From the NCBI RefSeq assembly GCF_041248615.1, contig NZ_CP158426.1: DNA of 64,000 nt. One strand, 5' to 3'. The notes below the pieces were generated by a model that worked only from the letters and a program-made list of their open reading frames with translations, searched no databases and was not told the DNA's origin. The position numbers and the translations under genes are program-made. The stretch comes from Escherichia coli (GTDB taxonomy: Bacteria > Pseudomonadota > Gammaproteobacteria > Enterobacterales > Enterobacteriaceae). The stretch's first letter is position 1. Each line of letters begins with the position of its first letter. Shown here piece by piece: positions 2,092 to 37,352 of this stretch.

Positions 2092-2095
2092 ACAG

Positions 2096-2120
2096 AGCCG
2101 CCCTTCGGGGCGGTTTTTTT
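2096..2120 (+). terminator. Rho-independent terminator of fumA
   Basis: GC stem GCCGCCC/GGGCGG with TTCG loop followed by T7 run, 5 nt after fumA stop. Confidence 0.8.
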
Positions 2121-2233
2121 ACATGGCACGAAAGACCAAACATTTGTTATCAAATAGTAAATAATGAGTGAGCTAAAAGTTGCTTAACGAAAGCAAAACA
2201 GAAAGAAAAAATTAATCAGGTGAGGAGCAGGCC

Positions 2234-5941
<3,708 letters not shown>

Positions 5942-5944
5942 CGC

Positions 5945-6664
5945 TTATTCCCATGCATGAGGCGCAAAAAGATAGCCTTTGTTACGCACAGTTTTAATGC
6001 GATAAGGTTCTGCGGCGTTATCGAGCAGTTTTTTTCTTAACCGCGAAATAGCCACGTCCACGCTACGATCCAGTCCGTCATAACTGACGCCGCGTAAATT
6101 TTTCAGCAATGCATCGCGGTCCATGATTTGCCCGGCATGGGTAGCTAATTCCCACAATAATTCGAAATCAGCTGTCGAGAGCGAGATTTCAGTGTTAGCC
6201 AGGGTGACTACGCGGTTGATGGGATCGATGGTCAACGTGCCGAAATGCAGGGCTTTGTAGGGAGTCAGAGACGTTTCCTGAAGACCTTTGGTCAGTGTGG
6301 CTTGCTCATTCTGACGCAAATGCAAACGTAAACGCGCTAGCAAAACAGCAGGGGGCGTCGTTTTGAGAATATAGTCGCAGGCACCCATTTCCAGTGCCAG
6401 GATGTGGTTCATATCGCTATCGAGAGAGGTTAGAAGAACAATCGGTCCAGACCACTTTGCGCGTAAATCACGACAAATGGTCATGCCGTCCTTGCCTGGT
6501 AGCATGATGTCGAGTAACACCAAATCCGGATTTTCTCGCAAAATAGTTTCTTCGGCCCGGTCGCCGCGCGGTTCCACGGTAACCTGCATATCATGTTTTG
6601 CCAGGTACGCAGCAATCAGTGAACCGACTTCCGCATCATCTTCCACAAATACGATAGTGTTCAT
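5945..6664 (-). CDS. rstA: Two-component response regulator RstA (OmpR family), 239 aa
   Basis: Track ORF 259 aa; start placed at internal MNTIVFVEDD (complement ATG 6662-6664) giving 239 aa receiver + winged-helix domain. Confidence 0.9.
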   Translation of the reverse strand: MNTIVFVEDDAEVGSLIAAYLAKHDMQVTVEPRGDRAEETILRENPDLVLLDIMLPGKDGMTICRDLRAKWSGPIVLLTSLDSDMNHILALEMGACDYILKTTPPAVLLARLRLHLRQNEQATLTKGLQETSLTPYKALHFGTLTIDPINRVVTLANTEISLSTADFELLWELATHAGQIMDRDALLKNLRGVSYDGLDRSVDVAISRLRKKLLDNAAEPYRIKTVRNKGYLFAPHAWE

Positions 6665-6792
6665 AACATTCACGGTAGATATAAAAACGTCACAATACAC
6701 CGCGCTGTTTTTACTTACTATCAATCGTTTCTAAACAAGGTTTCATCAGGTATTCTACTGATAACTTGTTATGGAAGTGTTAAGGTAAAAAG

Positions 6793-7128
6793 ATGGGGCT
6801 GGTAATCAAAGCCGCGCTCGGTGCGCTGGTAGTGCTGTTGATTGGTGTTTTAGCAAAAACGAAAAATTATTATATCGCCGGGCTGATCCCACTTTTCCCG
6901 ACCTTTGCGCTCATCGCGCATTATATTGTTGCCAGCGAACGCGGCATTGAAGCCTTACGCGCAACCATCATTTTTAGCATGTGGTCGATTATTCCCTATT
7001 TTGTTTACCTGGTGTCGCTGTGGTATTTCACCGGAATGATGCGCTTACCCGCTGCTTTTGTTGGTTCTGTTGCGTGTTGGGGGATAAGCGCATGGGTGTT
7101 GATTATATGCTGGATAAAGCTGCATTAA
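6793..7128 (+). CDS. ydgC: GlpM-family small inner membrane protein, 111 aa
   Basis: Track ORF 111 aa, highly hydrophobic; position between rstA and folM. Confidence 0.85.
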   Translation: MGLVIKAALGALVVLLIGVLAKTKNYYIAGLIPLFPTFALIAHYIVASERGIEALRATIIFSMWSIIPYFVYLVSLWYFTGMMRLPAAFVGSVACWGISAWVLIICWIKLH

Positions 7129-7847
7129 CGCAGATGACGACCGCCATCAAGAGGGAAACTGCGTCCGGTGACAAAGCAGCTGGTAAGTAAGTAATCGACC
7201 AGGTCGATTACTTCTTTCTCGCCAGGCGCGGTTTTCATCAGTGATTTATTCAGCGCCTGTTGTCGATATTCGGCATCATCATGCTCATTAAACAGGATCA
7301 GCGATGGCGCAATAGAATTCACTTTCACTTCCGGTGCCAACTTGCGGGCAAACGAGCGGGTCATATTATCCAGTGCCGCTTTGCTTGCAGCATAGGCAAT
7401 ATGTTTGTCGCTACCGCGCTCCACCACATAATCGGTAAAGTGAATAATATCGCTGGCGGCGTGTCCGTGCCCACGCAGTAATCTTTCCAGGGCATGGTTG
7501 AGTAGATATGGGGTATTAACGTGGATCTGCATCATGCAAGCCAGTACGTCGGTCAGTGGTGTACTTGGTTTTTCTGCCATCCACGCGCTGGCGTTATGCA
7601 AAATAGCACGCAGGCCATGGGTGCTTTTTAGTACTTCATCGGCAAACGCCATCACACCGTCGTTGGTCGAAAAATCAGCCTGAATACACTGCGCACCTGC
7701 GTTAATCAGTCCATCAATGGCTGGATAGTGCGTCCGATAGCTGATAATCACCGGTTGCTTTTGATTAATGAAATGCCATGCGAGGGCGAGGCCGATGCGA
7801 CGACCACCGCCAGTAATTAATATTGGCAAGGGCTGGGCTTTACCCAT
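7125..7847 (-). CDS. folM: Dihydromonapterin reductase (SDR family), 240 aa
   Basis: Track ORF 240 aa with SDR Rossmann motif (ILITGGGRRIG); 4-nt convergent overlap with ydgC. Confidence 0.9.
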   Translation of the reverse strand: MGKAQPLPILITGGGRRIGLALAWHFINQKQPVIISYRTHYPAIDGLINAGAQCIQADFSTNDGVMAFADEVLKSTHGLRAILHNASAWMAEKPSTPLTDVLACMMQIHVNTPYLLNHALERLLRGHGHAASDIIHFTDYVVERGSDKHIAYAASKAALDNMTRSFARKLAPEVKVNSIAPSLILFNEHDDAEYRQQALNKSLMKTAPGEKEVIDLVDYLLTSCFVTGRSFPLDGGRHLR

Positions 7848-7883
7848 CGTTATCTCCTTTGCTATCCAACGATGGGATGAACG

Positions 7884-9266
7884 TTATCCCACCAGCATCC
7901 AGGTCGCCGGAACTGAGGCAATTAACAGCATGCCAATCAGCACCATTTCCTGACGATTCAGTACATTATCATGGGTATGCGTTTTACGCGCGTACAGGAA
8001 AACCAGCAGCCCCGGTGCATACAGAACAACGGATAACAGCAAGTGCATTGGACCAGAGGCGTACAATAACCATAAGCCATAAATGCAGGCACCGACACCT
8101 ACCGCTTTATGCAGTGGACGGGTTGCGATTTTCAGCAAGAACGCGCCGACCAGGAAATAGGGCACCAGAATCATTTCTGAGGCGATGGTCAGCAATGTGT
8201 TGTAATCGGAACCGGTCAGCCAGATGAGCACCAGACAAATTTGCACGCAGATGTTGGTCAGCCACAGTGAAGCGGATGGCGCAGCTTGTGCGTTCTGGCG
8301 CGCAAAAATGCGCGGGAATGCTTTATGAGTGGCGGCAAGGAACGGAACTTCTGCTGCCATGATGGTCCAGCTTAAGTACGCGCCGCAAACGGAAACGATC
8401 AAACCGGCAGCGATGATGATTTCGCCCCACGGTCCCATCATTTCCACCATCAGACCGGCCATTGACGGGTTACGAATTTCAGCCAGTTCAGGACGTGCCA
8501 CCACGCCCAGCGAAAGCAGCGTTACCAGCAAATAAACGCCCAGAGCGGAGAGAACCGCCAGCAGTGTCGCTTTGCCAACATCACGCTTATTACGCGCACG
8601 CGCAGAAACAACCACGGCACCTTCCACACCAATGAAAACCCACAGGGTGATCAGCATGGTGTTTTTCACCTGTTCCCACACGGGTACGCCAAGTGCAAGT
8701 CCGGTGAAGTCGAGCTTGAAGGTATCCAGTTTGAACATCATTATCGCCAGCACAACAAACAGACCCAACGGCAACAATTTTGCCAGTGTCGCCACAAGGT
8801 TAATGCTGGCAGCGGTTTGCACCCCGCGCAGGATCAAAAAGTGAACAATCCACAATAAAGCCGATGCACCGACGATCGATTGCCAGGTATTACCATCGCC
8901 AAACAGGCGCAATTCCGGCGTGTCCGTAAAAAAGCTTAACGCGGAAAAAACGATCACCAGATAGGAGACGTTGGCGATGACCGCGCACAGCCAGTATCCC
9001 CATGCGGAACAAAAGCCGATTAGCTCGCCAAACCCTTCGCGGGCATAGGTAAAGATACCGCCGTCAAGTTCGGGACGAATGCGCGTGAGGATCAGCATGG
9101 CAAAGGCCAGCAATAAAATGCCTGCGCCAGTAATACCCCAGCCGATGAGCAGTGCTGCCGGGCTGGCAACTGCCGCCATATTTTGCGGCAGACTGAAAAC
9201 ACCCGCGCCCAGCATTGAGCTTAATACCAGCGCGGTGAGTGCGCTCAGTCCCAGTTTCTTTTCCAT
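7884..9266 (-). CDS. ydgI: Putative arginine:ornithine antiporter (APC family), 460 aa
   Basis: Track ORF 460 aa polytopic membrane protein; synteny upstream of folM. Confidence 0.88.
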   Translation of the reverse strand: MEKKLGLSALTALVLSSMLGAGVFSLPQNMAAVASPAALLIGWGITGAGILLLAFAMLILTRIRPELDGGIFTYAREGFGELIGFCSAWGYWLCAVIANVSYLVIVFSALSFFTDTPELRLFGDGNTWQSIVGASALLWIVHFLILRGVQTAASINLVATLAKLLPLGLFVVLAIMMFKLDTFKLDFTGLALGVPVWEQVKNTMLITLWVFIGVEGAVVVSARARNKRDVGKATLLAVLSALGVYLLVTLLSLGVVARPELAEIRNPSMAGLMVEMMGPWGEIIIAAGLIVSVCGAYLSWTIMAAEVPFLAATHKAFPRIFARQNAQAAPSASLWLTNICVQICLVLIWLTGSDYNTLLTIASEMILVPYFLVGAFLLKIATRPLHKAVGVGACIYGLWLLYASGPMHLLLSVVLYAPGLLVFLYARKTHTHDNVLNRQEMVLIGMLLIASVPATWMLVG

Positions 9267-9400
9267 CGATATCCAGTGATTAAAACGTGATAAGAAGAAT
9301 AAATATTAGGGCAAAACGCATAAAAATGGAGTTTGCCACTGAAGCGCGGGATTTTACGAAGAGATGTGTCTGCATGCAATGGTCGCGGGGAAATTTGTGA

Positions 9401-9432
9401 CTAAAAATGCGAAAGGCGGCATCAAGCCGCCT
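9401..9432 (-). terminator. Rho-independent terminator downstream of ydgH
   Basis: Stem AGGCGGC/GCCGCCT with ATCAA loop; on the minus strand followed by U-rich tract (complement of CTAAAAATGCGAAA). Confidence 0.6.
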
Positions 9433-9451
9433 TATAGGAGTAACTGAATAG

Positions 9452-10396
9452 TTATTTATACAGATCTGCGCTGACGGTCAGGTTATTACCACGTTCCTGC
9501 CACTGGCGGGTGATGTGGTAATACTTAGCACCTTTCTTCGCGGCACGTTTCGCAACCTGATAGGAGACTTCGGTCATGTTGCCGTAGTTGCCAGAGAATT
9601 TGATGCTGTCGAACGGGACCATCATCGCTGCGGTCGCTTTGTTCAGTTCTTCGACTTTAGTGCCATCCGGGAGCGTGACGGTGTAACGCCCGCCTTTTGA
9701 TGACTGGGTTTCAAAGAAGCGACCGACTTCAGAACTTGGTGATGCGGTAGTCGCAACACCCGGGATCTCAACTTTCTTCGCGGCTTCGCCACCGGCAGCC
9801 AGAGCTGCACGTCCTGCTTCGGAATCTGCCGGGATCACATCCGGGCTCTGGACGATACGTTTCTTAGCATCTTTTTTATAGATGAATGCAGTAATACGCT
9901 GGTTGCCGCCCTGGTTGGCATCGATTTGACGAACGATGTAGAAAGAGTAGGCACCTTTCGCTTTTGCCGCTTTGGTGATGGCATCATTGACTTCTGGCTG
10001 GCTACGATAAAAGCCCTGGACGGTGACCGTGTCAAACGGTTCAATCAGAACGGCCTGATCTTTCGGCAGTTCGACAACCCCGTTAATTACGCGATTACTT
10101 GTTTCTTCTGCTTTTTCAGCATCGGCTTTATAGAGGTCAGCGACCACACGCCAGTTACCGCTGTTACCAAAATCAGAAGTGTCGACAACATAAAAAGAGG
10201 CGGCACCTTCTTTATCTGCGCGACGAGAAACGGCTTTCACCGCTTCGCCAATAGCATTAAAACGACCGGTAACCACTACACGGTCAAAAGGTTTAACCGC
10301 TGCCGCTTGCTCCGGTGTCAGTTCTGTTGCTGCGTTAACGGAGAATGCCGTAGCAGAAAGCAGTGCCGACGCCAGGAGGGTGTTCTTAAGCTTCAT
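9452..10396 (-). CDS. ydgH: Periplasmic protein YdgH (three DUF1471-like repeats), 314 aa
   Basis: Track ORF 314 aa with signal peptide and internally repeated ~90-aa modules. Confidence 0.88.
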   Translation of the reverse strand: MKLKNTLLASALLSATAFSVNAATELTPEQAAAVKPFDRVVVTGRFNAIGEAVKAVSRRADKEGAASFYVVDTSDFGNSGNWRVVADLYKADAEKAEETSNRVINGVVELPKDQAVLIEPFDTVTVQGFYRSQPEVNDAITKAAKAKGAYSFYIVRQIDANQGGNQRITAFIYKKDAKKRIVQSPDVIPADSEAGRAALAAGGEAAKKVEIPGVATTASPSSEVGRFFETQSSKGGRYTVTLPDGTKVEELNKATAAMMVPFDSIKFSGNYGNMTEVSYQVAKRAAKKGAKYYHITRQWQERGNNLTVSADLYK

Positions 10397-10856
10397 AAAA
10401 ATAATCCTTCGCCTTGCGCAAACCAGGTACTGGTATTGTTATTAACGAGAAACGTGGCTGATTATTGCATTTAAACGGTGTAACTGTCTGCGTCATTTTT
10501 CATATCACATTCCTTAAGCCAATTTTAATCCTGCTCAAATGACCGTCTATGCTTAAAAAACAGCCGTATCAGCATCAATACTACTGAAGCAACTGAATTG
10601 TATAAGTTAATTTAATGTTAAGTAGTGATTCGTGCCGGGGCGATGTCTCGTTTTACCTGACCGTCGAAGACAATTATCAGTCTTTATCCGGCGTTCTAAG
10701 GTGTTTATCCCACTATCACGGCTGAATCGTTAATATTTTGCGAGTTCACGCCGAAATACTGATTTTTGGCGCTAGATCACAGGCATAATTTTCAGTACGT
10801 TATAGGGCGTTTGTTACTAATTTATTTTAACGGAGTAACATTTAGCTCGTACATGA

Positions 10857-12452
<1,596 letters not shown>

Positions 12453-13884: not shown

Positions 13885-14910
13885 ATTGAGATCGCTTAAC
13901 AGAACGGCGATGCTTTGACCTCCCGCTGTTTGTTCAAGCGCAATTTTGACAATAATTGTCAACGGCACGGAAAGCAGCATACCCACCGGTCCTAACAACC
14001 ATCCCCAAAAAATCAACGACAAAAATACCACCAATGTCGAAAGCCCCAGCCCACGTCCCATGATGCGCGGCTCCAGAATATTGCCGAAGACCAGATTAAT
14101 CAGCAGATATCCCGCCAGCACCAACAACGCTTCGTAGAAGCCATTAAACACCAGTACCTGAGCGATAGGGGGAATTGCCGCGAGAACTGAACCAATATTC
14201 GGGATGTAATTAAGCGCAAAGGCCAGCAATCCCCAGACAAAAGCGAAGCGAACATCGAGTGCGGCGAGCATCGCCCAGGCGACCAGGCCGGTGATGATGC
14301 TGATGGCTGTTTTCAGCACCAGATAATGAGACACACTGTCAATCGCACGCTGAATCGCCGCCATCCCTTCAACCGGACGCGCCATCATTTGCTGAAATTT
14401 TCCGGGCAATTGTGGCACTTCGAGCAGCATAAACAGCACCGTCAGCAGCAATAAAAAGATTGATGACATGGCATTAGATAACTGCGTCAATAAGTTGGTG
14501 AGCAACGTCATCGCCGCGTTCGGATCAATGTAATGCGCCAGTTGGTCAACTGAGACGTCAATCCCTACGCGTTGCAACAACGGTTCAAGAGCTTGCAGCG
14601 GCGTCATAATAGAGTTGCGATATTGCGGTAACGTCCGCGTCAACTCGTTGAGTGCGGAACCCAGATAAGCTAACAGCAACACCATCGCCATCACGATGAT
14701 GGTCATCAAAATCGACACTGCCAGTACACGCGGCACACGCCAGCGGACCATGTGTTGCACCAGCGGGTTAAGAATAACAGCAATAAATAATGCGAGAATA
14801 AACGGCACGATGATCTCGGCGGCAAAACGGATACCGCAGAGAATAATGACCAGCATTCCCAACATAATGACGATTTTTAGGCCATTGAGCGTGATGATCG
14901 GCTTTGCCAT
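13876..14910 (-). CDS. tqsA: AI-2 transporter (AI-2E family), 344 aa
   Basis: Track ORF 344 aa polytopic membrane protein; synteny. Confidence 0.88.
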
Positions 14911-15321
14911 GCTTGTCCCCGTTTTTTCTTCCTTTGCTAATAATAATGTCTTTTTCGCTCCGTCATCATAACGAAAATCAAACCGCTCAGGTAAAGAAGT
15001 GAAAATATTTTGAGTTAATTCTTAAGCTATGATACAAATCAGGCGTGTTCAACTACCGAGGACAATTATCATCCGCGATGACGAGAAGCAACACTGCGGA
15101 TAATTGTAATATTATGGACAATTTGTTCAGGACGTTATTTTCTACATTTACCCATCTTCGTACCTCATCCACTATCTTGCTCGTAGGTGAGCAGCACTGG
15201 CGCAACGCGCTTTAGTCCTTTCTTCTGCTTAAGCTTGCGCTATGCGCGGGGCTTGACCACTTTACTTTGGTTTCGCTGAATTAAGCGAAAATTAAAATAA
15301 TTCTCTTGCAGGAGAAGGACA

Positions 15322-23702: not shown

Positions 23703-24317
23703 CTATCGAAAGAGTGGTTTAACCGCGACAGGAATTAACAGTTGTGATTGCCATTGCGCCAGCGTTAAGCGAGCCAGTTCACCCAGTGCACGGTAGAAAG
23801 GGTGTTCTGCTTTTTCGATAAAAACGTCAAGAAAACGTGTTGACCACGGAAAAAGGTGCCATGCCAGCAATTCTTCGCATTCTGTCTGGCGACCATTCTC
23901 CGCCAACCACGCAGCCATCAACAGCAGTGAACCAAAATGATCTTCCGGTTCGTTTTGCTTCATTTCAAACTGAATGCCTTTCTCGCGCATCCACTGACGA
24001 AGTGCCAATGTTGAATCGCCAAACAGCACAGATTCGCGATCCAGCCAGACCGACCCCCACGGCGGTGATGGCAGAGCCCACGGACCGACAAACAAACGCT
24101 GCCAGGCCTGGGCGTGAGTCTCTTCACACTGTGTCTGAAAAGCCGTCACCAGCGGCGCTAATGACGCTTCTGGTAGAGGCCACTGAGTTTCCCAGCCGTC
24201 ACGGGTGAGTACCGCAACCAGAGGTGCGGCTTCCGCACTCTCTGGAGCGTAATAAAACAGCGCGCCCAACACGCGCGCCGCGACAGAAAAATTATCTTGC
24301 TGTGAAAAATGGGTCAT
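23703..24317 (-). CDS. dmsD: Tat proofreading chaperone DmsD, 204 aa
   Basis: Track ORF 207 aa; start placed at MTHFSQQDNFSVAARVLGALFYY; follows ynfEFGH. Confidence 0.9.
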   Translation of the reverse strand: MTHFSQQDNFSVAARVLGALFYYAPESAEAAPLVAVLTRDGWETQWPLPEASLAPLVTAFQTQCEETHAQAWQRLFVGPWALPSPPWGSVWLDRESVLFGDSTLALRQWMREKGIQFEMKQNEPEDHFGSLLLMAAWLAENGRQTECEELLAWHLFPWSTRFLDVFIEKAEHPFYRALGELARLTLAQWQSQLLIPVAVKPLFR

Positions 24318-24359: not shown

Positions 24360-25214
24360 TTAACCTGCAATAGCCATTCCTACCGTCATGTGCAGGCCAT
24401 AAAAGAGCACACGCCCGATCATCTCACCGCCAAGTATGAGGATTAGCCCCAGAACAAGTCCGGCAACGTGAGGTTCACGGCGACGAATGAGCGGACAAAG
24501 CCAGCATCCTAGACCTGCGCATAACAATACCACACGCCAGACCTGTAAGGAGGCGTAATCTGGTACCAGTGCGCTGGCTTGTTGTACGGATGAGTGAATA
24601 GACGCCAGAGACAAACCTTGCAGCACAATCACCCCGGCACAAGCGATCAGCGCCAGAACGCTAATGATGGCAAATGGTGTGGTATTAAATGTAACGCGGG
24701 CTGCCCGCAGAATTGTGGCAGCAAGTATTGGACCGCTCAACAATACTGTCAGGAAGAAAGCCAGCGTAGTGTAACCGTTATACCAGGTTGGCACTGTGTC
24801 GATTTGATACACGCAGGTCATCATCCAGACGAAAATGACGCCGAGCGCCATGCTGACAAGTAACCAGAGTTTCCCCAACGCTTGCGGCATTTTACCGATG
24901 ACTGCCACCAGCCACCATAATCCGCCAACGGCAAAAAATATGGAACCGGCAGCAATCTCGTTACTCAGACCAGAAGCTCCGATTCGATTCAGCGAGTTAA
25001 ACGCTCGCAGTGGCGATCCCAGGTGCATGACAGAGGCAATAAACCCGATGCCCATCAACAGCCAGAGGAAAAACATGCCACGGACAATACGCTGACGGTC
25101 TGCGTCATTATTGGCGGCGAACCAGCCAATTCCGCTAACAATCAGCGCGCCTACTACGCATTGACCCAATACGGTAAAGATAACCAGTGGCCATTCATGC
25201 CATCCATTTCCCAT
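24360..25214 (-). CDS. ynfH: DmsC-like membrane anchor subunit of DMSO-reductase paralogue, 284 aa
   Basis: Track ORF 364 aa; start placed at MGNGWHEWPLVIFTVLGQ (complement ATG 25212-25214), 1 nt after ynfG stop. Confidence 0.88.
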   Translation of the reverse strand: MGNGWHEWPLVIFTVLGQCVVGALIVSGIGWFAANNDADRQRIVRGMFFLWLLMGIGFIASVMHLGSPLRAFNSLNRIGASGLSNEIAAGSIFFAVGGLWWLVAVIGKMPQALGKLWLLVSMALGVIFVWMMTCVYQIDTVPTWYNGYTTLAFFLTVLLSGPILAATILRAARVTFNTTPFAIISVLALIACAGVIVLQGLSLASIHSSVQQASALVPDYASLQVWRVVLLCAGLGCWLCPLIRRREPHVAGLVLGLILILGGEMIGRVLFYGLHMTVGMAIAG

Positions 25215-25215
25215 T

Positions 25216-25833
25216 TTACACTTCCTCCGGATTAGCCAGATAACCAGTGGTATCGCCGGTCGGGCGGCTGTTGGCGTTAGGTTTGATAACGATATTGGGT
25301 TTTGTGAAATGCGCGCGCGGTAGTGGCGCGACGGCAGCCAGAGTGCCGTGCTTCTGGCGCAGCTCTTCAATTGGACCGAACTCAAGTGCACGCAGCGGGC
25401 AGGATTCGACACATATGGGTTGTTTCCCCTCGGCGACGCGCGAATAACAACCATCGCACTTCGTCATGTGTCCTTTTTCAGCATTGTACTGTGGCGCGCC
25501 GTACGGACAAGCCATGTGGCAGTAGCGGCAGCCGATACAAACATCTTCATCAACCACCACAAAGCCATCTTCACGCTTATGCATTGCGCCGCTGGGGCAG
25601 ACTTTTGTACATGCGGGGTCATCGCAATGGTTACAGGAGATGGAGAGATAATAAGCGAACACGTTCTGGTGCCAGACGCCATTATCTTCCTGCCAGTCGC
25701 CGCCAGCATATTCATAAATACGGCGGAAACTGACTTCCGGGCCAAGATCTTTAAAATCTTTGCACGCCAGTTCGCAGGTTTTACAGCCAGTACAGCGGCT
25801 GGAATCGATAAAAAATCCATATTGTGTGGTCAT
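25216..25833 (-). CDS. ynfG: DmsB-like 4Fe-4S ferredoxin subunit, 205 aa
   Basis: Track ORF 205 aa with four CxxCxxCxxxCP clusters. Confidence 0.92.
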   Translation of the reverse strand: MTTQYGFFIDSSRCTGCKTCELACKDFKDLGPEVSFRRIYEYAGGDWQEDNGVWHQNVFAYYLSISCNHCDDPACTKVCPSGAMHKREDGFVVVDEDVCIGCRYCHMACPYGAPQYNAEKGHMTKCDGCYSRVAEGKQPICVESCPLRALEFGPIEELRQKHGTLAAVAPLPRAHFTKPNIVIKPNANSRPTGDTTGYLANPEEV

Positions 25834-25843
25834 GGGCTACTCC

Positions 25844-28270
25844 TTAAACCTTTTCGATCTGGACAAGATTGCTGTGCGACGGGTTTCCCTTTGCCAGCGG
25901 TGAAGGGCGGTGAGAGGTCAGAATATTGATACTGCCGCCGTGATCGACCCGGTCACCAAACATATCCGCTTTAAGCCACGCACCTTGCCCGATGGCGGTA
26001 ACGCCAGGCAGAATACGCGGAGTCACTTTTGCGGCAATCAGCATTTCTCCATTATTGTTAAATACCCGCACGGTATCGCCATGACGGATACCGCGTGCCT
26101 GAGCATCAATAGGGTTGATCCACACCTCTTGTGGGCAGGCCTGCTGTAACACATCAATATTGCCGTAGCTGGAGTGGGTACGCGCTTTGTAGTGGAAGCC
26201 CGTTAGCTGCAGTGGATAGGTTTTCCGCAGGGGATCGTCCCAGCCATCAAAACCTGGGGTATACGCAGGAAGGGGATGAATAATTTCATCTTTTTTCAAT
26301 TCCCAGGTATCCGCAATCGTCGCCAGTCGTTCAGAATAAATTTCGATTTTCCCCGAAGGTGTTTTCAACGGGTTTGCCTGTGGATCTTCACGGAATGCGC
26401 GGAAAGCGACGTAGTGTTCTTCCGGGCATTTTTTCTTAAAGATCCCGGTCGTTTTCATCTCCTCGTAGTCGGGCATCTCAGGGTTACGTTCCTTCGTTTT
26501 CGCATGGAGATATTTGATCCATTCGTGCTGACTGCGGCCTTCAGTAAAGGTTTGATAAACGTCTGGTCCTAAGCGTTTGGCGACTTCGCTCAGCATCCAG
26601 TAGATGGGTTTGCGTTCAAATTTTGCTGAGGTTGCGGGTTGGGCGAGGATCACATAGCCCATATTCCCGGCAGATTCGTGAGAGATAAGGTCTTCTTGCT
26701 CTGTTGGCATCAGGTCGGGCAACAGGATATCGCAATACTTAGCCGAGGCAGTCATGAAGTGGTCAATGCCAACAATCATCTCGCACTTGCTGTCATCCTG
26801 AAGCACCTCATGGGTGTGATTGATGTCGCCATGTTGATTGATCAATGTGTTACTGGCGTAGCACCATAAAAACTTGATGGGGACATCCAGTTTTTCTTTT
26901 CCACGAACACCATCACGGGTCGCGGTCATTTCCGTACCGTGGTCGATGGCATCTGTCCATGTAAAGACGGAAATCTGCGTTTTAACAGGATTCTCAAGCA
27001 TCGGGAACCATTCTACCCCCAGATCCCAGCTACCTTCGCGTACACCTGAGTTGCCGCCGTTTATGCCGACGTTACCGGTGAGAACGGAAAGCATGGCAAT
27101 AGCGCGGGACGTTTGTTCGCCGTTGGAGTGTCGTTGTGGCCCCCAACCCTGACAAATATAAGCAGGTTTTGCTGAACCGATCTCTCGTGCCAACTGGATA
27201 ATTTTTTCTGCCGGTATGCTGGTGATTTTTGCTGCCCATTCCGGCGTTTTAGCTATGCCGTCAGGCCCTTCGCCCAGAATATAGGCTTTATAATGCGCGT
27301 TACGTGGTGCGTTGGCGGGCAGCGTTTTTTCATCGTAACCAACACAATATTTGTCGAGAAATGGCTGATCGACCATGTTTTCAGTAATCAGTACCCAGGC
27401 AATCGCACAGGCCAGTGCGCCATCGGTGCCTGGGCGAATTGGCAGCCATTCATCTTCACGCCCGGCAGCAGTGTCGTTATAACGTGGATCGATGACGATC
27501 ATACGTGCGTTTGAACGTTCTCGGGCTTGCTCGACGTAGTAAGTGACACCACCGCCGCTCATCCGGGTTTCTGCCGGGTTATTTCCGAACATAACGACCA
27601 GTTTCGTATTGGCTATATCATCCGGGCTGTTGCCATCATTGGCACCGAACATATAACTCATTGCGGCACTGATCTGTGCGGTACTGTAGCTGCCATAGCG
27701 ACTGAGAAAACCACCGCAAGAGTTCATCAGACGGTACGGGACGTTTGAGTTGGTGATGTTTCCGCCATCTACGCCTGTTCCATAGAGAACATGTACAGCC
27801 TCATTGCCGTAATCTTTTAGGATCCGCCGAAGATTATCACTGATGGTATCCAGGGCTTCGTCCCAACTTATCCGTTCAAATTTACCTTCACCGCGCTTGC
27901 CGACGCGCTTCATGGGATATTTCAACCTATCAGGATGATTCATCCGTCGGCGGATAGAGCGCCCGCGTAAACACGCTCGAACCTGATGATTACCGTAGAC
28001 GTCGTCACCTGTCGTATCAGACTCCACCCAGTACACGGTGTCATCTTTCACATGCAAACGTAACAGACAGCGGCTCCCGCAGTTAACGGTGCAGGAACTC
28101 CAGACCGCTTTCTCTTCTACCGGTGCCTCTGCCGCTCGGACCATTTGGGAAAATGGCAGAGTGAAAGCACTGCTTGCCAGCGCGAGACTGCCAAGTGCGG
28201 AGGTTTTCATCAGACTTCTACGGCTGATTTCAGCCTTCATGAGCGCCTCTGTGGTATGGATTTTCATCAT
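25844..28270 (-). CDS. ynfF: DmsA-like molybdopterin oxidoreductase catalytic subunit (Tat signal), 807-808 aa
   Basis: Track ORF 808 aa with twin-arginine motif (SRRSLMKTSALGS) and Mo-bisMGD domain; start may be the second Met. Confidence 0.9.
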   Translation of the reverse strand: MMKIHTTEALMKAEISRRSLMKTSALGSLALASSAFTLPFSQMVRAAEAPVEEKAVWSSCTVNCGSRCLLRLHVKDDTVYWVESDTTGDDVYGNHQVRACLRGRSIRRRMNHPDRLKYPMKRVGKRGEGKFERISWDEALDTISDNLRRILKDYGNEAVHVLYGTGVDGGNITNSNVPYRLMNSCGGFLSRYGSYSTAQISAAMSYMFGANDGNSPDDIANTKLVVMFGNNPAETRMSGGGVTYYVEQARERSNARMIVIDPRYNDTAAGREDEWLPIRPGTDGALACAIAWVLITENMVDQPFLDKYCVGYDEKTLPANAPRNAHYKAYILGEGPDGIAKTPEWAAKITSIPAEKIIQLAREIGSAKPAYICQGWGPQRHSNGEQTSRAIAMLSVLTGNVGINGGNSGVREGSWDLGVEWFPMLENPVKTQISVFTWTDAIDHGTEMTATRDGVRGKEKLDVPIKFLWCYASNTLINQHGDINHTHEVLQDDSKCEMIVGIDHFMTASAKYCDILLPDLMPTEQEDLISHESAGNMGYVILAQPATSAKFERKPIYWMLSEVAKRLGPDVYQTFTEGRSQHEWIKYLHAKTKERNPEMPDYEEMKTTGIFKKKCPEEHYVAFRAFREDPQANPLKTPSGKIEIYSERLATIADTWELKKDEIIHPLPAYTPGFDGWDDPLRKTYPLQLTGFHYKARTHSSYGNIDVLQQACPQEVWINPIDAQARGIRHGDTVRVFNNNGEMLIAAKVTPRILPGVTAIGQGAWLKADMFGDRVDHGGSINILTSHRPSPLAKGNPSHSNLVQIEKV

Positions 28271-28327
28271 TACTCACTTATTGCTTTTCAAACAAAATGT
28301 CATGTCAGAATTTATGGTTGTAGTGGG

Positions 28328-30754
28328 TTATATTTTTTCGATCTCGACCAGATTAGTGTGCTGCGGGTTTCCCTTCGCCAGTGGTGAAGGGCGCAGAGTG
28401 GTTAGCGTATTCACACAGCCGCCATGGTCGATTTTATCGCCAGACATATTGGCCTCGTGCCAGGCTCCCTGGCCCATAGCGCTAACCCCAGGGAGAATGC
28501 GTGGTGTCACTTTGGCTGGTAGCCGAACTTCGCCACGATGGTTATACACCCGCACCATATCGCCGTTGGCAATCCCACGTTTCTGTGCATCTATAGGGTT
28601 GATCCACACCTCCTGACGGCAGGCAGCCTTCAGGACATCAATGTTGCCGTAGGTCGAGTGAGTACGGGATTTGTAATGGAAACCAAACAGTTGCAGTGGG
28701 AAGGTTCTACGTTCAGGGGAGTCCCAGCCTTCAAAGGTTGAGGCATAAACTGGCAGTGGGCTTATCACTTCATCTTTTTCCAGTTCCCAGGTACGGGCAA
28801 TTTCCGCCAGCTTGCTGGAATAAATTTCAATCTTACCGGAAGGCGTTTTAAGTGGATTTGCCTCGGGGTCGTCACGAAATGCTTTGTAGGCGACAAAATG
28901 ACCATTGGGATCTTTACGCTTATAGATACCCATTTTTTTCAGTTCGTCGTAAGACGGTAACGCCGGATCTTTGGCAAGCATTTTGGCGTACAGATGTTGT
29001 AACCATTGTTCCTGCGTGCGACCTTCTGTGAACTTTTGATAGACGTCAGGTCCAAGACGTTTCGCGACCTCACTCAGGATCCAGTAAATCGGTTTGCGTT
29101 CGAATTTTTCGCTGGTGACTGGCTGAAGGAAAATGAGATATCCCATGTTACCGGCGTAGTCGTTAGGAATAATATCTTCCTGCTCAACGGTCATCAGGTC
29201 TGGCAGCAGAATGTCGGCATATTTTGCCGATGAGGTCATAAAGTTTTCGATGACCACAATCATTTCGCATTTCGATTCGTTCTGCAGAATTTCATGCGTT
29301 TTGTTGATGTCAGAATGCTGATTAACCAGGGTATTTCCCGCGTAGTTCCAGATGAACTTAATGGGCACATCCAGTTTATCTTTGCCCCGGACGCCGTCGC
29401 GGATTGCCGTCATTTGCGGGCCATGATCGATAGCATCCGTCCAGCTGAAGCAGGAGATTGACGTTTTGACCGGATTATCCAGCACCGGTAGGCGTTCTAT
29501 GGTAATGGTATAGGTCGATTCACGCGCGCCACTATTCCCGCCGCTGATGCCGACATTGCCCGTCAAAATAGGCAACATAGCAATAGCGCGTGCGGTCAGC
29601 TCACCGTTTGCCTGGGGTTGCGGCCCCCAGCCCTGGCAGATATAAGCGGGTTTTGCTGTGCCAATTTCACGCGCCAGCTTGATGATACGGTCCACCGGGA
29701 TACCGGTAATTTGCGAAGCCCACTGCGGCGTTTTCGCTGTTTTATCATCACCTTCACCAAGAATATAGGCTTTATAGTGACCATTTTTTGGTGCATCTGC
29801 GGGTAAGGTTTTTTCGTCATAGCCGACGCAGTATTTATCGAGAAAAGGTTGATCAACGAGATTTTCGTTAATCAATACCCAGGCAATACCCGCAACCAGC
29901 GCGGCATCGGTGCCCGGGCGAATAGGTAGCCATTCGTCTTCACGACCAGCAGCTGTATCGGTATATCGCGGATCGATAACAATCATTTTTGCGTTCGATT
30001 TCTCGCGCGCTTTTTCAAGAAGATAAGTGATGCCACCGCCGCTCATGCGGGTTTCTGCCGGGTTGTTACCAAACATCACGACCAGCTTGCTGTTTTCAAT
30101 ATCCGTGGTGCTGTTGCCATCATTACTGCCGTAGGTGTAGGGCATGGCACAGGAAATTTGCGCGGTGCTGTAGGAGCCATACTGGTTGAGTGAACCGCCG
30201 TAGCAGTTCATCAGGCGTTTGACCGCCGAGGCGGATGGCGAAGAGCGGGTCATATTGCCGCCAACGATCCCTGAAGAGTACTGAATATATACAGCCTCAT
30301 TGCCATATTGTTCGACGGTTTTTTTCAGGCTACTGGCGATAGTATCCAGGGCTTCATCCCAGCTAATCCGTTCGAATTTGCCTTCGCCGCGTTTGCCCAC
30401 GCGTTTCATTGGGTAATTCAAGCGATCGGGATGATTAATACGCCGACGGATGGAGCGACCGCGCAAACAGGCACGTACTTGATGATTGCCATACTCGTCG
30501 TTGCCGGTGTTGTCAGTTTCCACCCAGGTCACTTCATTATCTTTAACATGCAGACGAAGTGCACAGCGGCTACCACAGTTGACGGAACAGGCACCCCAGA
30601 CCACTTTCTCGCTGGCCTGCTGTACCGCTGCCGCTGCACTGCGCAGGGTGAACGGTAAAGAAAAACCGCCTGCAGCCAGCGCCAGAGAACCTATCGCGGT
30701 AGATTTAACGAGTGTTCTGCGGCTGATGCCCACCATTTGTTCATTTTTGGACAT
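28328..30754 (-). CDS. ynfE: DmsA-like molybdopterin oxidoreductase catalytic subunit (Tat signal), 808 aa; selenate reductase paralogue
   Basis: Track ORF 808 aa, paralogous to ynfF (about 75% nt identity at 3' ends by eye); twin-arginine motif SRRTLVKSTAIGS. Confidence 0.9.
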   Translation of the reverse strand: MSKNEQMVGISRRTLVKSTAIGSLALAAGGFSLPFTLRSAAAAVQQASEKVVWGACSVNCGSRCALRLHVKDNEVTWVETDNTGNDEYGNHQVRACLRGRSIRRRINHPDRLNYPMKRVGKRGEGKFERISWDEALDTIASSLKKTVEQYGNEAVYIQYSSGIVGGNMTRSSPSASAVKRLMNCYGGSLNQYGSYSTAQISCAMPYTYGSNDGNSTTDIENSKLVVMFGNNPAETRMSGGGITYLLEKAREKSNAKMIVIDPRYTDTAAGREDEWLPIRPGTDAALVAGIAWVLINENLVDQPFLDKYCVGYDEKTLPADAPKNGHYKAYILGEGDDKTAKTPQWASQITGIPVDRIIKLAREIGTAKPAYICQGWGPQPQANGELTARAIAMLPILTGNVGISGGNSGARESTYTITIERLPVLDNPVKTSISCFSWTDAIDHGPQMTAIRDGVRGKDKLDVPIKFIWNYAGNTLVNQHSDINKTHEILQNESKCEMIVVIENFMTSSAKYADILLPDLMTVEQEDIIPNDYAGNMGYLIFLQPVTSEKFERKPIYWILSEVAKRLGPDVYQKFTEGRTQEQWLQHLYAKMLAKDPALPSYDELKKMGIYKRKDPNGHFVAYKAFRDDPEANPLKTPSGKIEIYSSKLAEIARTWELEKDEVISPLPVYASTFEGWDSPERRTFPLQLFGFHYKSRTHSTYGNIDVLKAACRQEVWINPIDAQKRGIANGDMVRVYNHRGEVRLPAKVTPRILPGVSAMGQGAWHEANMSGDKIDHGGCVNTLTTLRPSPLAKGNPQHTNLVEIEKI

Positions 30755-30853: not shown

Positions 30854-30867
30854 TTAATCCATATCAA
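30854..30867. promoter_or_regulatory. Candidate FNR half-palindrome site upstream of ynfE
   Basis: TTAAT-CCAT-ATCAA (consensus TTGAT-N4-ATCAA, 9/10) about 106 bp upstream of ynfE ATG. Confidence 0.35.
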
Positions 30868-35984: not shown

Positions 35985-37352
35985 ATGACAATAGAAAAAC
36001 ACGAAAGAAGCACTAAGGATTTGGTGAAAGCAGCAGTATCGGGATGGCTGGGCACAGCGCTTGAATTTATGGATTTCCAGTTATATTCGCTCGGCGCAGC
36101 GTTAGTGTTTCATGAAATATTTTTTCCTGAATCATCAACGGCAATGGCGTTAATTCTGGCAATGGGAACCTACGGTGCAGGTTATGTGGCGCGTATTGTC
36201 GGAGCATTTATTTTCGGCAAAATGGGCGACAGAATCGGGCGTAAAAAAGTACTCTTTATTACCATCACCATGATGGGGATCTGTACCACCTTAATTGGTG
36301 TGTTACCGACCTATGCACAGATTGGTGTTTTTGCACCCATCTTGCTGGTGACGCTGCGTATTATTCAGGGATTGGGTGCAGGTGCGGAAATTTCCGGTGC
36401 CGGTACGATGCTGGCGGAATATGCGCCAAAAGGTAAGCGCGGAATTATCTCCTCATTTGTGGCTATGGGGACTAACTGCGGAACCTTGAGCGCAACGGCA
36501 ATCTGGGCCTTTATGTTCTTCATTCTCAGTAAAGAGGAACTGCTTGCGTGGGGATGGCGTATACCGTTCCTGGCGAGCGTTGTCGTGATGGTCTTTGCTA
36601 TCTGGTTGCGTATGAATCTGAAAGAAAGCCCGGTCTTTGAGAAGGTTAACGACAGCAACCAACCGACAGCAAAACCTGCACCTGCTGGTAGCATGTTCCA
36701 GAGCAAATCCTTCTGGCTGGCAACAGGGCTGCGTTTTGGTCAGGCTGGTAACTCCGGTTTAATTCAGACTTTCCTTGCAGGCTATTTAGTGCAGACGTTA
36801 TTGTTTAACAAAGCAATTCCAACAGATGCATTGATGATTAGTTCGATTCTCGGCTTTATGACCATTCCGTTCCTTGGTTGGTTATCCGATAAAATTGGTC
36901 GCCGGATCCCGTATATTATTATGAATACCTCCGCGATTGTGCTGGCATGGCCAATGCTTTCTATCATCGTAGATAAAAGCTATGCCTCGAGCACCATTAT
37001 GGTTGCACTGATTGTGATTCATAACTGTGCGGTGCTGGGATTATTTGCTCTGGAAAACATTACCATGGCAGAAATGTTCGGCTGTAAAAACCGCTTTACC
37101 CGGATGGCTATTTCTAAAGAAATTGGTGGTCTTATCGCTTCCGGTTTTGGTCCTATCCTGGCGGGTATTTTCTGCACCATGACGGAATCCTGGTATCCGA
37201 TCGCCATTATGATCATGGCATATTCAGTGATTGGTTTAATCTCTGCGCTGAAAATGCCAGAAGTGAAAGACCGTGATTTAAGTGCACTGGAAGATGCCGC
37301 GGAAGATCAACCGCGTGTTGTAACAGCTGCGCAACCTTCAAGAAGTCTGTAA
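35985..37352 (+). CDS. ydfJ: MFS (metabolite:H+ symporter-like) transporter, 455 aa, intact
   Basis: Track ORF 455 aa; lies directly after rspB, whereas in K-12 (from memory) this gene is disrupted by the Qin prophage. Confidence 0.82.
   Translation: MTIEKHERSTKDLVKAAVSGWLGTALEFMDFQLYSLGAALVFHEIFFPESSTAMALILAMGTYGAGYVARIVGAFIFGKMGDRIGRKKVLFITITMMGICTTLIGVLPTYAQIGVFAPILLVTLRIIQGLGAGAEISGAGTMLAEYAPKGKRGIISSFVAMGTNCGTLSATAIWAFMFFILSKEELLAWGWRIPFLASVVVMVFAIWLRMNLKESPVFEKVNDSNQPTAKPAPAGSMFQSKSFWLATGLRFGQAGNSGLIQTFLAGYLVQTLLFNKAIPTDALMISSILGFMTIPFLGWLSDKIGRRIPYIIMNTSAIVLAWPMLSIIVDKSYASSTIMVALIVIHNCAVLGLFALENITMAEMFGCKNRFTRMAISKEIGGLIASGFGPILAGIFCTMTESWYPIAIMIMAYSVIGLISALKMPEVKDRDLSALEDAAEDQPRVVTAAQPSRSL

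What the first reader, a model, noticed from the sequence alone, without database searches (positions are those of the whole stretch)
25844..30754. Tandem paralogous molybdoenzyme genes ynfE and ynfF
Two adjacent 808-codon Tat-dependent DmsA-like genes share the same architecture and roughly 75% nucleotide identity where I compared the 3' ends by eye. This is an ancient tandem duplication upstream of single ynfG, ynfH and dmsD genes. The identity is high enough to matter for read mapping but probably too diverged for frequent homologous recombination.
Basis: seen in the sequence. Interest (0 to 1): 0.25.

Follow-up and report, generated by a model that had tools for sequence, protein, structure and literature searches.

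The report
Known ynfE/ynfF paralogous reductase genes
Two neighbouring E. coli genes for selenate/tellurate-reducing molybdenum enzymes are old, roughly 70%-identical copies of each other; this is standard, already-annotated biology, and this genome shows no recent sequence exchange between them.

Summary
Window 28328-30754 is ynfE and 25844-28267 is ynfF, both on the minus strand. They are the first two genes of the E. coli ynfEFGH-dmsD operon (100% match to strain NRZ14408).

They share one domain architecture, a twin-arginine signal and a four-cysteine motif.

Third codon positions are only 47% identical. The longest shared exact run is 20 nt, and no window shows raised identity, so there is no gene-conversion tract. 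The genes share no 21-mer, and no 100-nt window reaches 85%, so read cross-mapping is not a concern.

"Ancient" is supported. "Tandem duplication" is not demonstrated. Of 80 related Enterobacterales loci, only four carry the ynfE-ynfF pair, and most carry ynfE alone. F-type genes are the sole catalytic gene of their operons in Providencia, Aeromonas and a Pasteurellaceae genome.

Outside this window, rare E. coli and Salmonella isolates carry in-register ynfE::ynfF hybrid genes. In addition, 546 of 5426 complete E. coli genomes carry an internally deleted ynfF.

Verdict: already known, low interest.

The parts
28328..30754 (-). ynfE: Tat-exported molybdopterin/[4Fe-4S] catalytic subunit (808 aa), first gene of the operon
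   Evidence: ORF. RefSeq annotation in the 100%-identical record. Three Pfam domains. NCBIfam YnfE model scores 1790.7 against a cutoff of 1675, while the YnfF model scores 1471.7, below its cutoff of 1650.
25844..28267 (-). ynfF: paralogous catalytic subunit (807 aa as annotated; an in-frame ATG at 28270 would give 808)
   Evidence: ORF. Annotation. Pfam. NCBIfam YnfF model scores 1775.2 against a cutoff of 1650, while the YnfE model scores 1481.9, below its cutoff of 1675.
28268..28327 (-). ynfE-ynfF spacer (60 nt from the ynfE stop to the annotated ynfF ATG)
   Evidence: Sequence. No terminator-like hairpin was predicted here, which is consistent with co-transcription. The spacer is unrelated to the ~100-nt spacer in Salmonella arizonae.
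25216..25833 (-). ynfG: four-cluster ferredoxin subunit, starting 10 nt after the ynfF stop
   Evidence: Annotation. Pfam Fer4_11. It is 94% identical to DmsB in protein but only 42% at four-fold sites.
24360..25214 (-). ynfH: membrane anchor subunit (DmsC family)
   Evidence: Annotation. Pfam DmsC, E = 1.4e-127.
23703..24317 (-). dmsD: Tat proofreading chaperone
   Evidence: Annotation. Pfam Nitrate_red_del. The literature reports that DmsD binds the YnfE, YnfF and DmsA signal peptides (PMC5203670).
30854..30867 (-). FNR-like inverted repeat (TTGATATGGATTAA, 1 mismatch to TTGAT-N4-ATCAA), 100-113 nt upstream of the ynfE ATG
   Evidence: Pattern search and sequence. FNR control of the operon is taken from Xu et al. 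2009 as cited in PMC10845959. The match alone is weak evidence: 61 matches occur in the window against ~41 expected by chance.
29615..29617 (-). ynfE codon 380: CCC (Pro) here, CGC (Arg) in K-12
   Evidence: Arg is present in the other 55 of 56 aligned YnfE/YnfF/DmsA sequences.
28593..28612 (-). Longest stretch identical between the two genes (20 nt, GAGGTGTGGATCAACCCTAT); its ynfF counterpart lies at 26109-26128
   Evidence: one search confirms there is no shared 21-mer.

Best explanation
This is the ordinary ynfEFGH-dmsD operon of Escherichia coli.

ynfE and ynfF encode two alternative catalytic subunits of the DmsA/YnfE/YnfF branch of the DMSO reductase family. Each has a twin-arginine signal peptide, an N-terminal four-cysteine [4Fe-4S] site and molybdopterin-binding domains.

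By inference from DmsABC and from published genetics, the pathway runs as follows. Each pre-protein is held by the chaperone DmsD while the cofactor is inserted. It is then exported by Tat together with the ferredoxin YnfG and docks on the quinol-oxidising anchor YnfH. This gives two isoenzymes, E-G-H and F-G-H, that reduce selenate and tellurate under anaerobiosis. Transcription starts at an FNR-dependent promoter upstream of ynfE.

The two genes are old paralogues. Their split is deeper than the spread of the YnfE clade across Enterobacterales. Purifying selection keeps them distinct (dN/dS about 0.1), and no sequence exchange is detectable in this genome. The adjacency arose once, before Escherichia and Salmonella diverged. 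How it arose is not resolved.
For: Identity: the window is 100% identical to E. coli NRZ14408, with RefSeq names ynfE, ynfF, ynfG, ynfH and dmsD. Each protein passes its own NCBIfam model and fails the other's. Domains are; the signal and Cys motifs are visible.

Divergence:
- 70.8% protein and 69.6% nucleotide identity; codon positions 1/2/3 are 78.7/83.4/46.8% identical.
- pN 0.185, pS 0.71.
- Four-fold sites are 42% identical, against 27% expected from composition alone.

No conversion:
- The longest exact run is 20 nt, and 150-nt windows (step 75) range 59-78%.
- The identity profile along the gene is the same in E. coli, Salmonella and C. amalonaticus, and the paralogue identity never exceeds 0.80.

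Age and single origin of the adjacency:
- The pair is present in E. coli, E. albertii, Salmonella, C. amalonaticus and Pseudocitrobacter.
- The E. coli and Salmonella ynfE genes share the same derived 3' end (...EKI*).
- Clades are YnfE (bootstrap 92%), F-type (100%) and DmsA (100%).

Function, from the literature:
- E. coli delta-ynfEF cannot reduce selenate (PMC12724226).
- YnfE is the main contributor in Salmonella, and DmsD binds both signal peptides (PMC5203670).
- FNR control is cited in PMC10845959.
Against: Nothing contradicts the identification. Caveats:
- No enzyme activity or expression was tested here.
- The YnfE of this strain carries R380P at a position that is otherwise invariant in the family, so its activity is uncertain.
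- The FNR site is a one-mismatch consensus match.
- The trees are neighbour-joining on corrected p-distances with midpoint rooting and no outgroup.
- Some family members look mosaic, for example P0071, which weakens any tree-based dating.
Confidence: 0.93

Rival explanations
1. Origin. A single ancestral A gene duplicated in place, in front of ynfG, before the Enterobacterales radiated. Most lineages later lost ynfF, and some non-Enterobacteriaceae lineages lost ynfE.
For: - The genes are adjacent, on the same strand, and share one set of partner genes.
- E and F are slightly closer to each other (71%) than either is to DmsA (67%).
- Midpoint rooting puts E and F together.
- Loss of ynfF does happen. 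E. whittamii lacks it although E. coli and E. albertii both have it. Deletions also remove it in living populations.
Against: - It requires many independent clean losses of ynfF. 76 of the 80 sampled loci lack an F-type gene next to ynfE, and all 40 first-position genes tested (36 of them from loci without ynfF) are E-type along essentially their whole length.
- It also requires loss of ynfE in Providencia, Aeromonas and Pasteurellaceae.
- Yersiniaceae have ynfE next to a DmsA-clade gene, not an F-type gene.
Confidence: 0.4
2. Origin by juxtaposition. E-type and F-type genes were already separate lineages. The E. coli arrangement arose when an E-type gene came to lie upstream of an F-type A-B-C-D operon, or when two tandem operons were fused by deletion. 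This happened in an ancestor of Escherichia and Salmonella, or earlier.
For: - F-type genes are the only catalytic gene of complete A-B-C-D operons in Providencia, Aeromonas and [A.] rossii, with the same 10-nt A-to-B spacing as E. coli ynfF-ynfG.
- Whole paralogous operons do sit in tandem: Budvicia has ynfE-G-H followed by dmsA-B-C-dmsD, and [Enterobacter] lignolyticus has dmsABC followed by F-type-B-C.
- ynfE occurs in five different contexts: E-G-H-D, E-D, E-F-G-H-D, E-DmsA-type-G-H-D and E-G-H-DmsA-B-C-D.
- The YnfF signal-peptide n-region resembles that of DmsA, whereas that of YnfE differs (PMC5203670).
- The B/C subunit trees do not track the type of the A gene.
Against: - No donor or insertion scar was identified.
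- The same data fit duplication followed by losses.
- The sample is the 80 best YnfE matches only, so it is biased toward Enterobacteriaceae.
Confidence: 0.4
3. The pair is recent, or is being homogenised by gene conversion, so tracts of very high identity exist that would drive frequent recombination and mis-mapping.
For: None in this window. In other isolates, in-register hybrids show that the two genes can recombine.
Against: - The longest identical run is 20 nt, and there is no shared 21-mer.
- Third positions are 47% identical.
- Paralogue identity is the same (about 70-71%) in E. coli and Salmonella.
- The hybrids are deletions with crossovers in 5- and 11-nt identical tracts, not conversion patches.
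Confidence: 0.01
4. One of the two copies is functionally dead or dispensable ballast in this strain.
For: - YnfE here has R380P at a position where Arg is present in the other 55 of 56 aligned sequences.
- ynfF is a deletion pseudogene in 546 of 5426 complete E. coli genomes.
- A pangenome study lists ynfE and ynfF among the most often pseudogenised metabolic genes (PMC13322260).
- YnfF contributes little to selenate reduction in Salmonella.
Against: - Both reading frames are intact here.
- Both show strong purifying selection between E. coli and Salmonella arizonae: dN is 0.082 for ynfE and 0.051 for ynfF, so ynfF is the better conserved of the two.
Confidence: 0.1

Closest known systems
E. 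coli K-12 ynfEFGH-dmsD operon (Lubitz & Weiner 2003; Guymer et al. 2009; Fujita et al. 2021, as cited in PMC12096835 and PMC5203670)
   Same: Same genes, order, spacing and flanks (ynfD upstream, clcB downstream). The pair is 98.1% identical in nucleotides to MG1655.
   Different: YnfE differs from K-12 at 11 residues, including R380P; YnfF differs at 1 residue.
E. coli DmsABC (DMSO reductase)
   Same: Same three-subunit design, Tat export, DmsD dependence and domain architecture. YnfG is 94% identical to DmsB.
   Different: DmsA is 67% identical to both YnfE and YnfF, and YnfH is 58.5% identical to DmsC. DmsABC lies at a separate locus next to serS, with one catalytic gene and no chaperone gene.
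Salmonella enterica ynfEFGH-dmsD (PMC5203670)
   Same: Same tandem pair, with the same paralogue identity (71% reported). The ynfE 3' end has the same derived ...EKI* ending.
   Different: The E-F spacer is about 100 nt and unrelated in sequence. Orthologue identities to E. coli are 87% for YnfE and 92% for YnfF.
Single-catalytic-gene relatives: ynfE-ynfG-ynfH-dmsD of Enterobacter, Klebsiella, Kluyvera and Citrobacter freundii group; Enterobacter cloacae SrnABCD (PMC12724226)
   Same: An E-type catalytic gene with the same partners. srnA complements E. coli delta-ynfEF.
   Different: There is no ynfF, and the E-type gene abuts ynfG directly with the ...KV*-10 nt-ATG junction that E. coli has after ynfF. 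I did not compare SrnA itself with these loci.

Membership tests
DmsA/YnfE/YnfF subfamily of the DMSO reductase family (TIGR02166) | Whole-protein score above the curated cutoff (777.7 bits) | tested here: met
   YnfE scores 1391.1 bits and YnfF scores 1286 bits.
DmsA/YnfE/YnfF subfamily | Domain order Molybdop_Fe4S4 - Molybdopterin - Molydop_binding | tested here: met
   All three Pfam domains are above their gathering scores in both proteins.
DmsA/YnfE/YnfF subfamily | N-terminal twin-arginine (Tat) signal peptide | tested here: met
   GISRRTLVKS in YnfE and EISRRSLMKT in YnfF, each followed by a hydrophobic stretch (alignment). Export itself was not tested.
DmsA/YnfE/YnfF subfamily | N-terminal four-cysteine [4Fe-4S] motif | tested here: met
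   CSVNCGSRC...RAC in YnfE and CTVNCGSRC...RAC in YnfF, aligned in both.
DmsA/YnfE/YnfF subfamily | Mo-bis(MGD) cofactor, its protein ligand, and selenate/tellurate reductase activity | not testable with these tools
   No solved structure of a close relative exists; the best PDB matches are TorA/DorA at E around 1e-75. Activity is known only from the literature.
YnfE (NCBIfam NF041885) versus YnfF (NF041884) | Each protein passes its own model's cutoff and not the other's | tested here: met
   YnfE scores 1790.7 (cutoff 1675) on its own model and 1471.7 (cutoff 1650) on the YnfF model. YnfF scores 1775.2 (cutoff 1650) on its own model and 1481.9 (cutoff 1675) on the YnfE model.
ynfEFGH-dmsD operon | Co-oriented ferredoxin, DmsC-type anchor and DmsD chaperone genes directly downstream | tested here: met
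   gaps between genes are 1-60 nt (10 nt ynfF-ynfG, 1 nt ynfG-ynfH, 42 nt ynfH-dmsD, 60 nt ynfE-ynfF).
In-situ tandem gene duplicate | Adjacent, same orientation, homologous over the full length | tested here: met
In-situ tandem gene duplicate | The two copies are each other's closest paralogues | tested here: inconclusive
   E-F identity is 71%, against 67% for each gene versus DmsA. Midpoint-rooted NJ trees group E with F, but no outgroup was used.
In-situ tandem gene duplicate | The two copies co-occur across the taxa that descend from the duplication | tested here: not met
   Only 4 of 80 ynfE loci have ynfF. F-type genes occur without ynfE in Providencia, Aeromonas and [A.] rossii.
Gene-conversion / concerted evolution between tandem paralogues | Tracts of identity well above the gene-wide level, or paralogues closer than orthologues | tested here: not met
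   The longest exact run is 20 nt and the maximum 150-nt identity is 82%. The quartet scan shows no raised window.

The most novel reading that the evidence does not exclude
The ynfE-ynfF pair may be a natural substrate for homeologous recombination that repeatedly makes in-frame hybrid catalytic subunits.

- In-register E(N-terminal)::F(C-terminal) genes of 808 or 812 aa occur with at least six crossover points in E. coli and five in Salmonella.
- Out-of-register in-frame fusions are carried by whole lineages.
- One Salmonella lineage has a DmsA-YnfE-YnfF triple hybrid at the serS locus.
- The loss of ynfF in Escherichia whittamii has the footprint of such a crossover in the last shared 10 nt.

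If some hybrids are active, this would be natural domain shuffling of a molybdoenzyme. It would also explain the patchy distribution of ynfF.
Probability: 0.25. Interest if true: 0.4.

Novelty: already known. Interest (0 to 1): 0.15.

Why it matters
For this window it matters little. The pair is annotated and has been studied genetically, and it poses no mapping or assembly hazard.

The wider comparison is of modest use in three ways:
- It warns that 'tandem duplication' should not be read off adjacency alone. The E-type and F-type genes have separate, wide and patchy distributions.
- It shows that the locus is a frequent site of gene loss and rearrangement in E. coli and Salmonella populations. 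This bears on studies that treat ynfF as present, for example work in ST131 strains.
- It flags natural hybrid alleles, and an R380P allele, that could be used to probe which parts of the protein set substrate preference.

Tried and rejected
1. Gene-conversion tracts between ynfE and ynfF. I used sliding windows, longest exact runs, k-mer sharing and a six-sequence scan with Salmonella and C. amalonaticus. None were found. The six 'flagged' windows are simply the most conserved protein segments, and the same peaks appear in all three species.

2. Conversion between ynfG and dmsB, suggested by 94% protein identity and a second megablast place per genome. Four-fold sites are only 42% identical, the same as for E/F. 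The similarity therefore reflects constraint, with a single 38-nt identical run.

3. Dating by synonymous divergence. This is not usable, because even the E. coli-Salmonella orthologues are saturated here (pS 0.72-0.80).

4. Looking for hybrids in complete genomes. The two partial-coverage candidates (H147, H148) turned out to be a mobile-element insertion in ynfE and an IS-associated deletion, not hybrids. A 100-nt query across the P0040 junction did not discriminate by coverage, because it matches ynfF at 88%. No complete genome matched it at 95% or more, so that hybrid is absent from the 5426 genomes.

5. Whether the single-copy E-type genes of other genera are old mid-gene hybrids. They are not: all 40 tested are E-type along their length.

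6. The idea that the element splitting ynfE marks the STEC prophage site 'Z2577'. The papers I could read list Z2577 but do not say which gene it is, so this is unverified.

7. The primary paper on the ynfE promoter (Xu et al. 2009) is not held. FNR control is therefore cited second-hand.

8. No maximum-likelihood tree program or outgroup was available, so the trees are NJ with bootstrap only.
Full report
WHAT IS THERE

The ORF list shows two 808-codon ORFs at exactly the stated coordinates, both on the minus strand. The 8-kb stretch around them is 100% identical to the chromosome of E. coli NRZ14408 and at least 95% identical to nearly all of 5426 complete E. coli genomes.

RefSeq annotates the stretch, in order of transcription, as follows:
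- ynfE, window 28328-30754
- ynfF, 25844-28267 (807 aa from the second ATG)
- ynfG, 25216-25833
- ynfH, 24360-25214
- dmsD, 23703-24317

ynfD lies upstream and clcB downstream. The upstream gene is therefore the one at the higher coordinates.

CHECK OF THE OBSERVATION

- blastp of the two products gives 70.5% identity over 801 residues, E = 0. blastn gives 70.8% over 2286 nt.
- A codon-aware alignment gives 70.8% protein and 69.6% nucleotide identity. Codon positions 1/2/3 are 78.7/83.4/46.8% identical.
- The last 150, 300 and 600 nt are 73.3, 72.7 and 70.7% identical. 'Roughly 75% at the 3' ends' is slightly high but fair.
- Both proteins have Molybdop_Fe4S4, Molybdopterin and Molydop_binding domains. 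Both have an SRRxLxK twin-arginine signal and an aligned CxxxCxxxC...C motif.
- Each passes NCBI's model for its own name and fails the other's: YnfE scores 1790.7 (cutoff 1675) versus 1471.7 (cutoff 1650) on the YnfF model, and YnfF scores 1775.2 (cutoff 1650) versus 1481.9 (cutoff 1675) on the YnfE model.

GENE CONVERSION AND MAPPING

- The longest run identical in both genes is 20 nt. Identity in 150-nt windows (step 75) runs from 59 to 78%, and third-position identity stays at 34-60% throughout.
- No 21-mer is shared. No 100- or 150-nt window reaches 85%, and the best 150-nt window is 82%.
- In a six-sequence comparison with Salmonella arizonae and Citrobacter amalonaticus, paralogue identity rises and falls in the same places in all three species and never exceeds 0.80. 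This is the pattern of shared protein constraint, not of exchange.

AGE

- Four-fold degenerate sites are 42% identical, against 27% expected from base composition.
- By Nei-Gojobori, pN = 0.185 and pS = 0.71.
- Synonymous sites cannot date the split, because even the E. coli-Salmonella orthologues are saturated at this locus (pS 0.72 and 0.80).
- Non-synonymous distance is more useful. E versus F is 0.21. E. coli versus Budvicia YnfE is 0.16. E. coli YnfF versus the Providencia F-type protein is 0.16.
- Between E. coli and Salmonella, YnfF (dN 0.051) is better conserved than YnfE (dN 0.082). Neither is decaying in those lineages.

DISTRIBUTION, AND WHY 'TANDEM DUPLICATION' IS NOT ESTABLISHED

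One scan of species-representative genomes with YnfE returned 80 Enterobacterales loci, which I annotated by tblastn.
- Most have ynfE-ynfG-ynfH-dmsD with no second catalytic gene.
- Several Enterobacter and Lelliottia loci have only ynfE-dmsD.
- The E-F pair appears only in Salmonella arizonae and diarizonae, Citrobacter amalonaticus and Pseudocitrobacter faecalis. A further look-up added E. albertii.
- Serratia, Rahnella and Ewingella have ynfE followed by a gene of the DmsA clade.
- Budvicia has ynfE-G-H followed by dmsA-B-C-dmsD.

Neighbour-joining trees give three clades: YnfE (bootstrap 92%), F-type (100%) and DmsA (100%).

A protein search with YnfF found F-type proteins at 76-82% identity in Providencia rettgeri, an Aeromonas, [Actinobacillus] rossii and [Enterobacter] lignolyticus. 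They are F-like over most of their length. In the first three, the F-type gene is the only catalytic gene of an A-B-C-D operon. In the last, it heads a second operon directly after dmsABC.

The anchor-subunit tree follows taxonomy rather than the type of catalytic gene. The two anchor copies within Budvicia, and within [E.] lignolyticus, are nearly identical to each other. Modules of these operons have therefore been reshuffled or homogenised.

The 3' junction is informative.
- Every single-copy ynfE ends ...EIEK[V/A]*, followed by 10 nt and the ynfG ATG. This is the same junction that E. coli has after ynfF.
- The E. coli and Salmonella ynfE genes both end ...EKI*, followed by unrelated spacers.
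- The adjacency therefore has one origin that predates the Escherichia-Salmonella split.

Whether that origin was a duplication in place followed by many losses, or a later juxtaposition of two already distinct genes, cannot be decided from these data. I give the two readings equal weight.

HOW IT WORKS

Shown here:
- The sequence features above.
- The absence of a predicted terminator between ynfE and ynfF.
- A one-mismatch FNR-type inverted repeat at 30854-30867, 100-113 nt upstream of the ynfE start.

From the literature:
- The operon is FNR-regulated (Xu et al. 2009, as cited in PMC10845959).
- DmsD binds the YnfE, YnfF and DmsA signal peptides. In Salmonella, YnfE carries most of the selenate reductase activity, while YnfF contributes little (PMC5203670).
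- ynfEF are also implicated in tellurate reduction (Fujita et al. 2021, as cited in PMC12096835).

Inferred: there are two alternative complexes, E-G-H and F-G-H, built like DmsABC.

WHAT HAPPENS TO THE PAIR IN POPULATIONS (outside this window)

Among 5426 complete E. coli genomes, ynfE is at least 80% covered in 5111 and ynfF in only 4739. In 546 genomes, ynfF carries the same pair of internal deletions, corresponding to window 25926-26199 and 26974-27553. RefSeq annotates it as a frameshifted pseudogene, for example in strain MNCRE44. In other genomes ynfE is split by an integrase-bearing element or removed by IS-associated deletion. A recent pangenome study independently lists ynfE and ynfF among the most often pseudogenised metabolic genes (PMC13322260).

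The protein search also returned proteins that are YnfE at the N-terminus and YnfF at the C-terminus.
- Some are in register: 808 aa in E. coli with at least six different crossover points, and 812 aa in Salmonella with at least five.
- Others are out of register but in frame (946-1206 aa). One of these is found on 95 contigs, and another on 33 contigs including a 5.07-Mb one.

For two in-register hybrids I read the DNA. The locus is ynfD-hybrid-ynfG-ynfH-dmsD. In one, 432 E-type informative sites are followed by 312 F-type sites. The crossovers lie in identical tracts of 11 and 5 nt.

These are rare deletion products, mostly singletons in draft assemblies, and the hybrid I tested is absent from all complete genomes.

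Escherichia whittamii lacks ynfF although E. coli and E. albertii have it. Its ynfE switches from E-type to the F-type tail within the last shared 10 nt. This is what a terminal crossover would leave, although retention of an ancestral junction cannot be excluded by sequence alone.

VERDICT

The finding is real, correctly named and already known. The corrections are:
- the strand;
- the length of ynfF (807 aa as annotated);
- about 70% identity rather than 75%;
- no mapping hazard;
- 'tandem duplication' is unproven as the mechanism of origin.

Interest is low for the window itself. The hybrids and the patchy distribution are worth a note but lie outside it.

Noticed in passing
window 29615-29617 (ynfE codon 380, minus strand): This strain's YnfE has Pro (CCC) where K-12 has Arg (CGC), in the motif QGWGPQR. 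Arg is present in the other 55 of 56 aligned YnfE/YnfF/DmsA sequences. Only two complete genomes match the window's 8-kb ynf region at about 100%. YnfE differs from K-12 at 11 residues, YnfF at only 1.
   Followed up: partly
L002 (E. coli MNCRE44) 1501-3070; corresponds to window 25926-26199 and 26974-27553: ynfF is a pseudogene with two internal deletions (274 and 580 bp). The second deletion junction is present in 546 of 5426 complete E. coli genomes. Experiments that assume an intact ynfF in such strains may need checking.
   Followed up: yes
L087, L088, L089 (E. coli draft assemblies); proteins P0023-25, P0038-40, P0043, P0048; Salmonella P0028-36, P0052: A single in-register ynfE::ynfF hybrid gene replaces the pair, with many different crossover points. 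The two crossovers read at DNA level lie in 11-nt and 5-nt identical tracts.
   Followed up: partly
proteins P0001-P0018 (E. coli): Out-of-register but in-frame ynfE-ynfF fusions of 946-1206 aa. P0012 is on 95 contigs, and P0003 is on 33 contigs including a 5.07-Mb one. P0011 is an internal partial duplication of ynfE, and P0020 is an internal deletion of ynfF.
   Followed up: partly
L090 (Salmonella enterica GCA_011748485.1) 8001-10457: An 818-aa gene is DmsA at the N-terminus, YnfE in the middle and YnfF at the C-terminus. It sits between serS and ynfG-ynfH-dmsD and is listed in 64 blocks of the collection. This implies a large rearrangement between the dmsA and ynf loci in one Salmonella lineage.
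   Followed up: partly
L003 7516-7820 and L095 3999-4001; corresponds to window about 29342-29362: A mobile element splits ynfE at about nt 1393-1413 in some strains: one with a site-specific integrase in GPEC1031, and one with a KilA-N gene in VG12A2. The two fragments overlap by about 21 nt, as an attachment-site core would. ynfE gives about 290 more matched places than records across the complete genomes. I suspected this is the STEC prophage site called Z2577 but could not verify it.
   Followed up: partly
L007 (Escherichia whittamii) 7001-10052: This species has ynfE-ynfG with no ynfF, although E. coli and E. albertii (L098) both have the pair. Its ynfE is E-type up to GAGATCGAAAA and then continues with the tail and spacer that E. 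coli has after ynfF.
   Followed up: partly
window 25216-25833 (ynfG) versus K-12 dmsB (L006 2721-3338): The proteins are 94% identical, yet four-fold sites are only 42% identical. This is very strong constraint rather than conversion. A single 38-nt identical run explains why megablast finds a second place per genome.
   Followed up: yes
L086 (Budvicia) 10048-10899 and 14166-15017; L093 ([Enterobacter] lignolyticus) 5876-6739 and 10060-10923: Where two paralogous operons lie in tandem, their anchor-subunit genes are almost identical to each other while the catalytic genes belong to different clades. This suggests conversion or recent copying of the B-C module.
   Followed up: no
L008, L013, L015, L025, L032 and others: Several Enterobacter and Lelliottia genomes have ynfE followed directly by dmsD, with no ynfG or ynfH. 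The enzyme there presumably borrows DmsB and DmsC.
   Followed up: no
L057 (record labelled Chryseobacterium sp. 18061): This locus carries an Enterobacteriaceae-type ynfE (84% identical to E. coli YnfE) followed by dmsD, so the record looks mislabelled or contaminated.
   Followed up: no
window about 35985-37352 (ydfJ; L001 14486-15853): ydfJ is annotated as one intact 1368-nt gene followed by ydfI. From memory, K-12 has the Qin prophage in this neighbourhood, so this strain appears to lack it. I did not check this.
   Followed up: no
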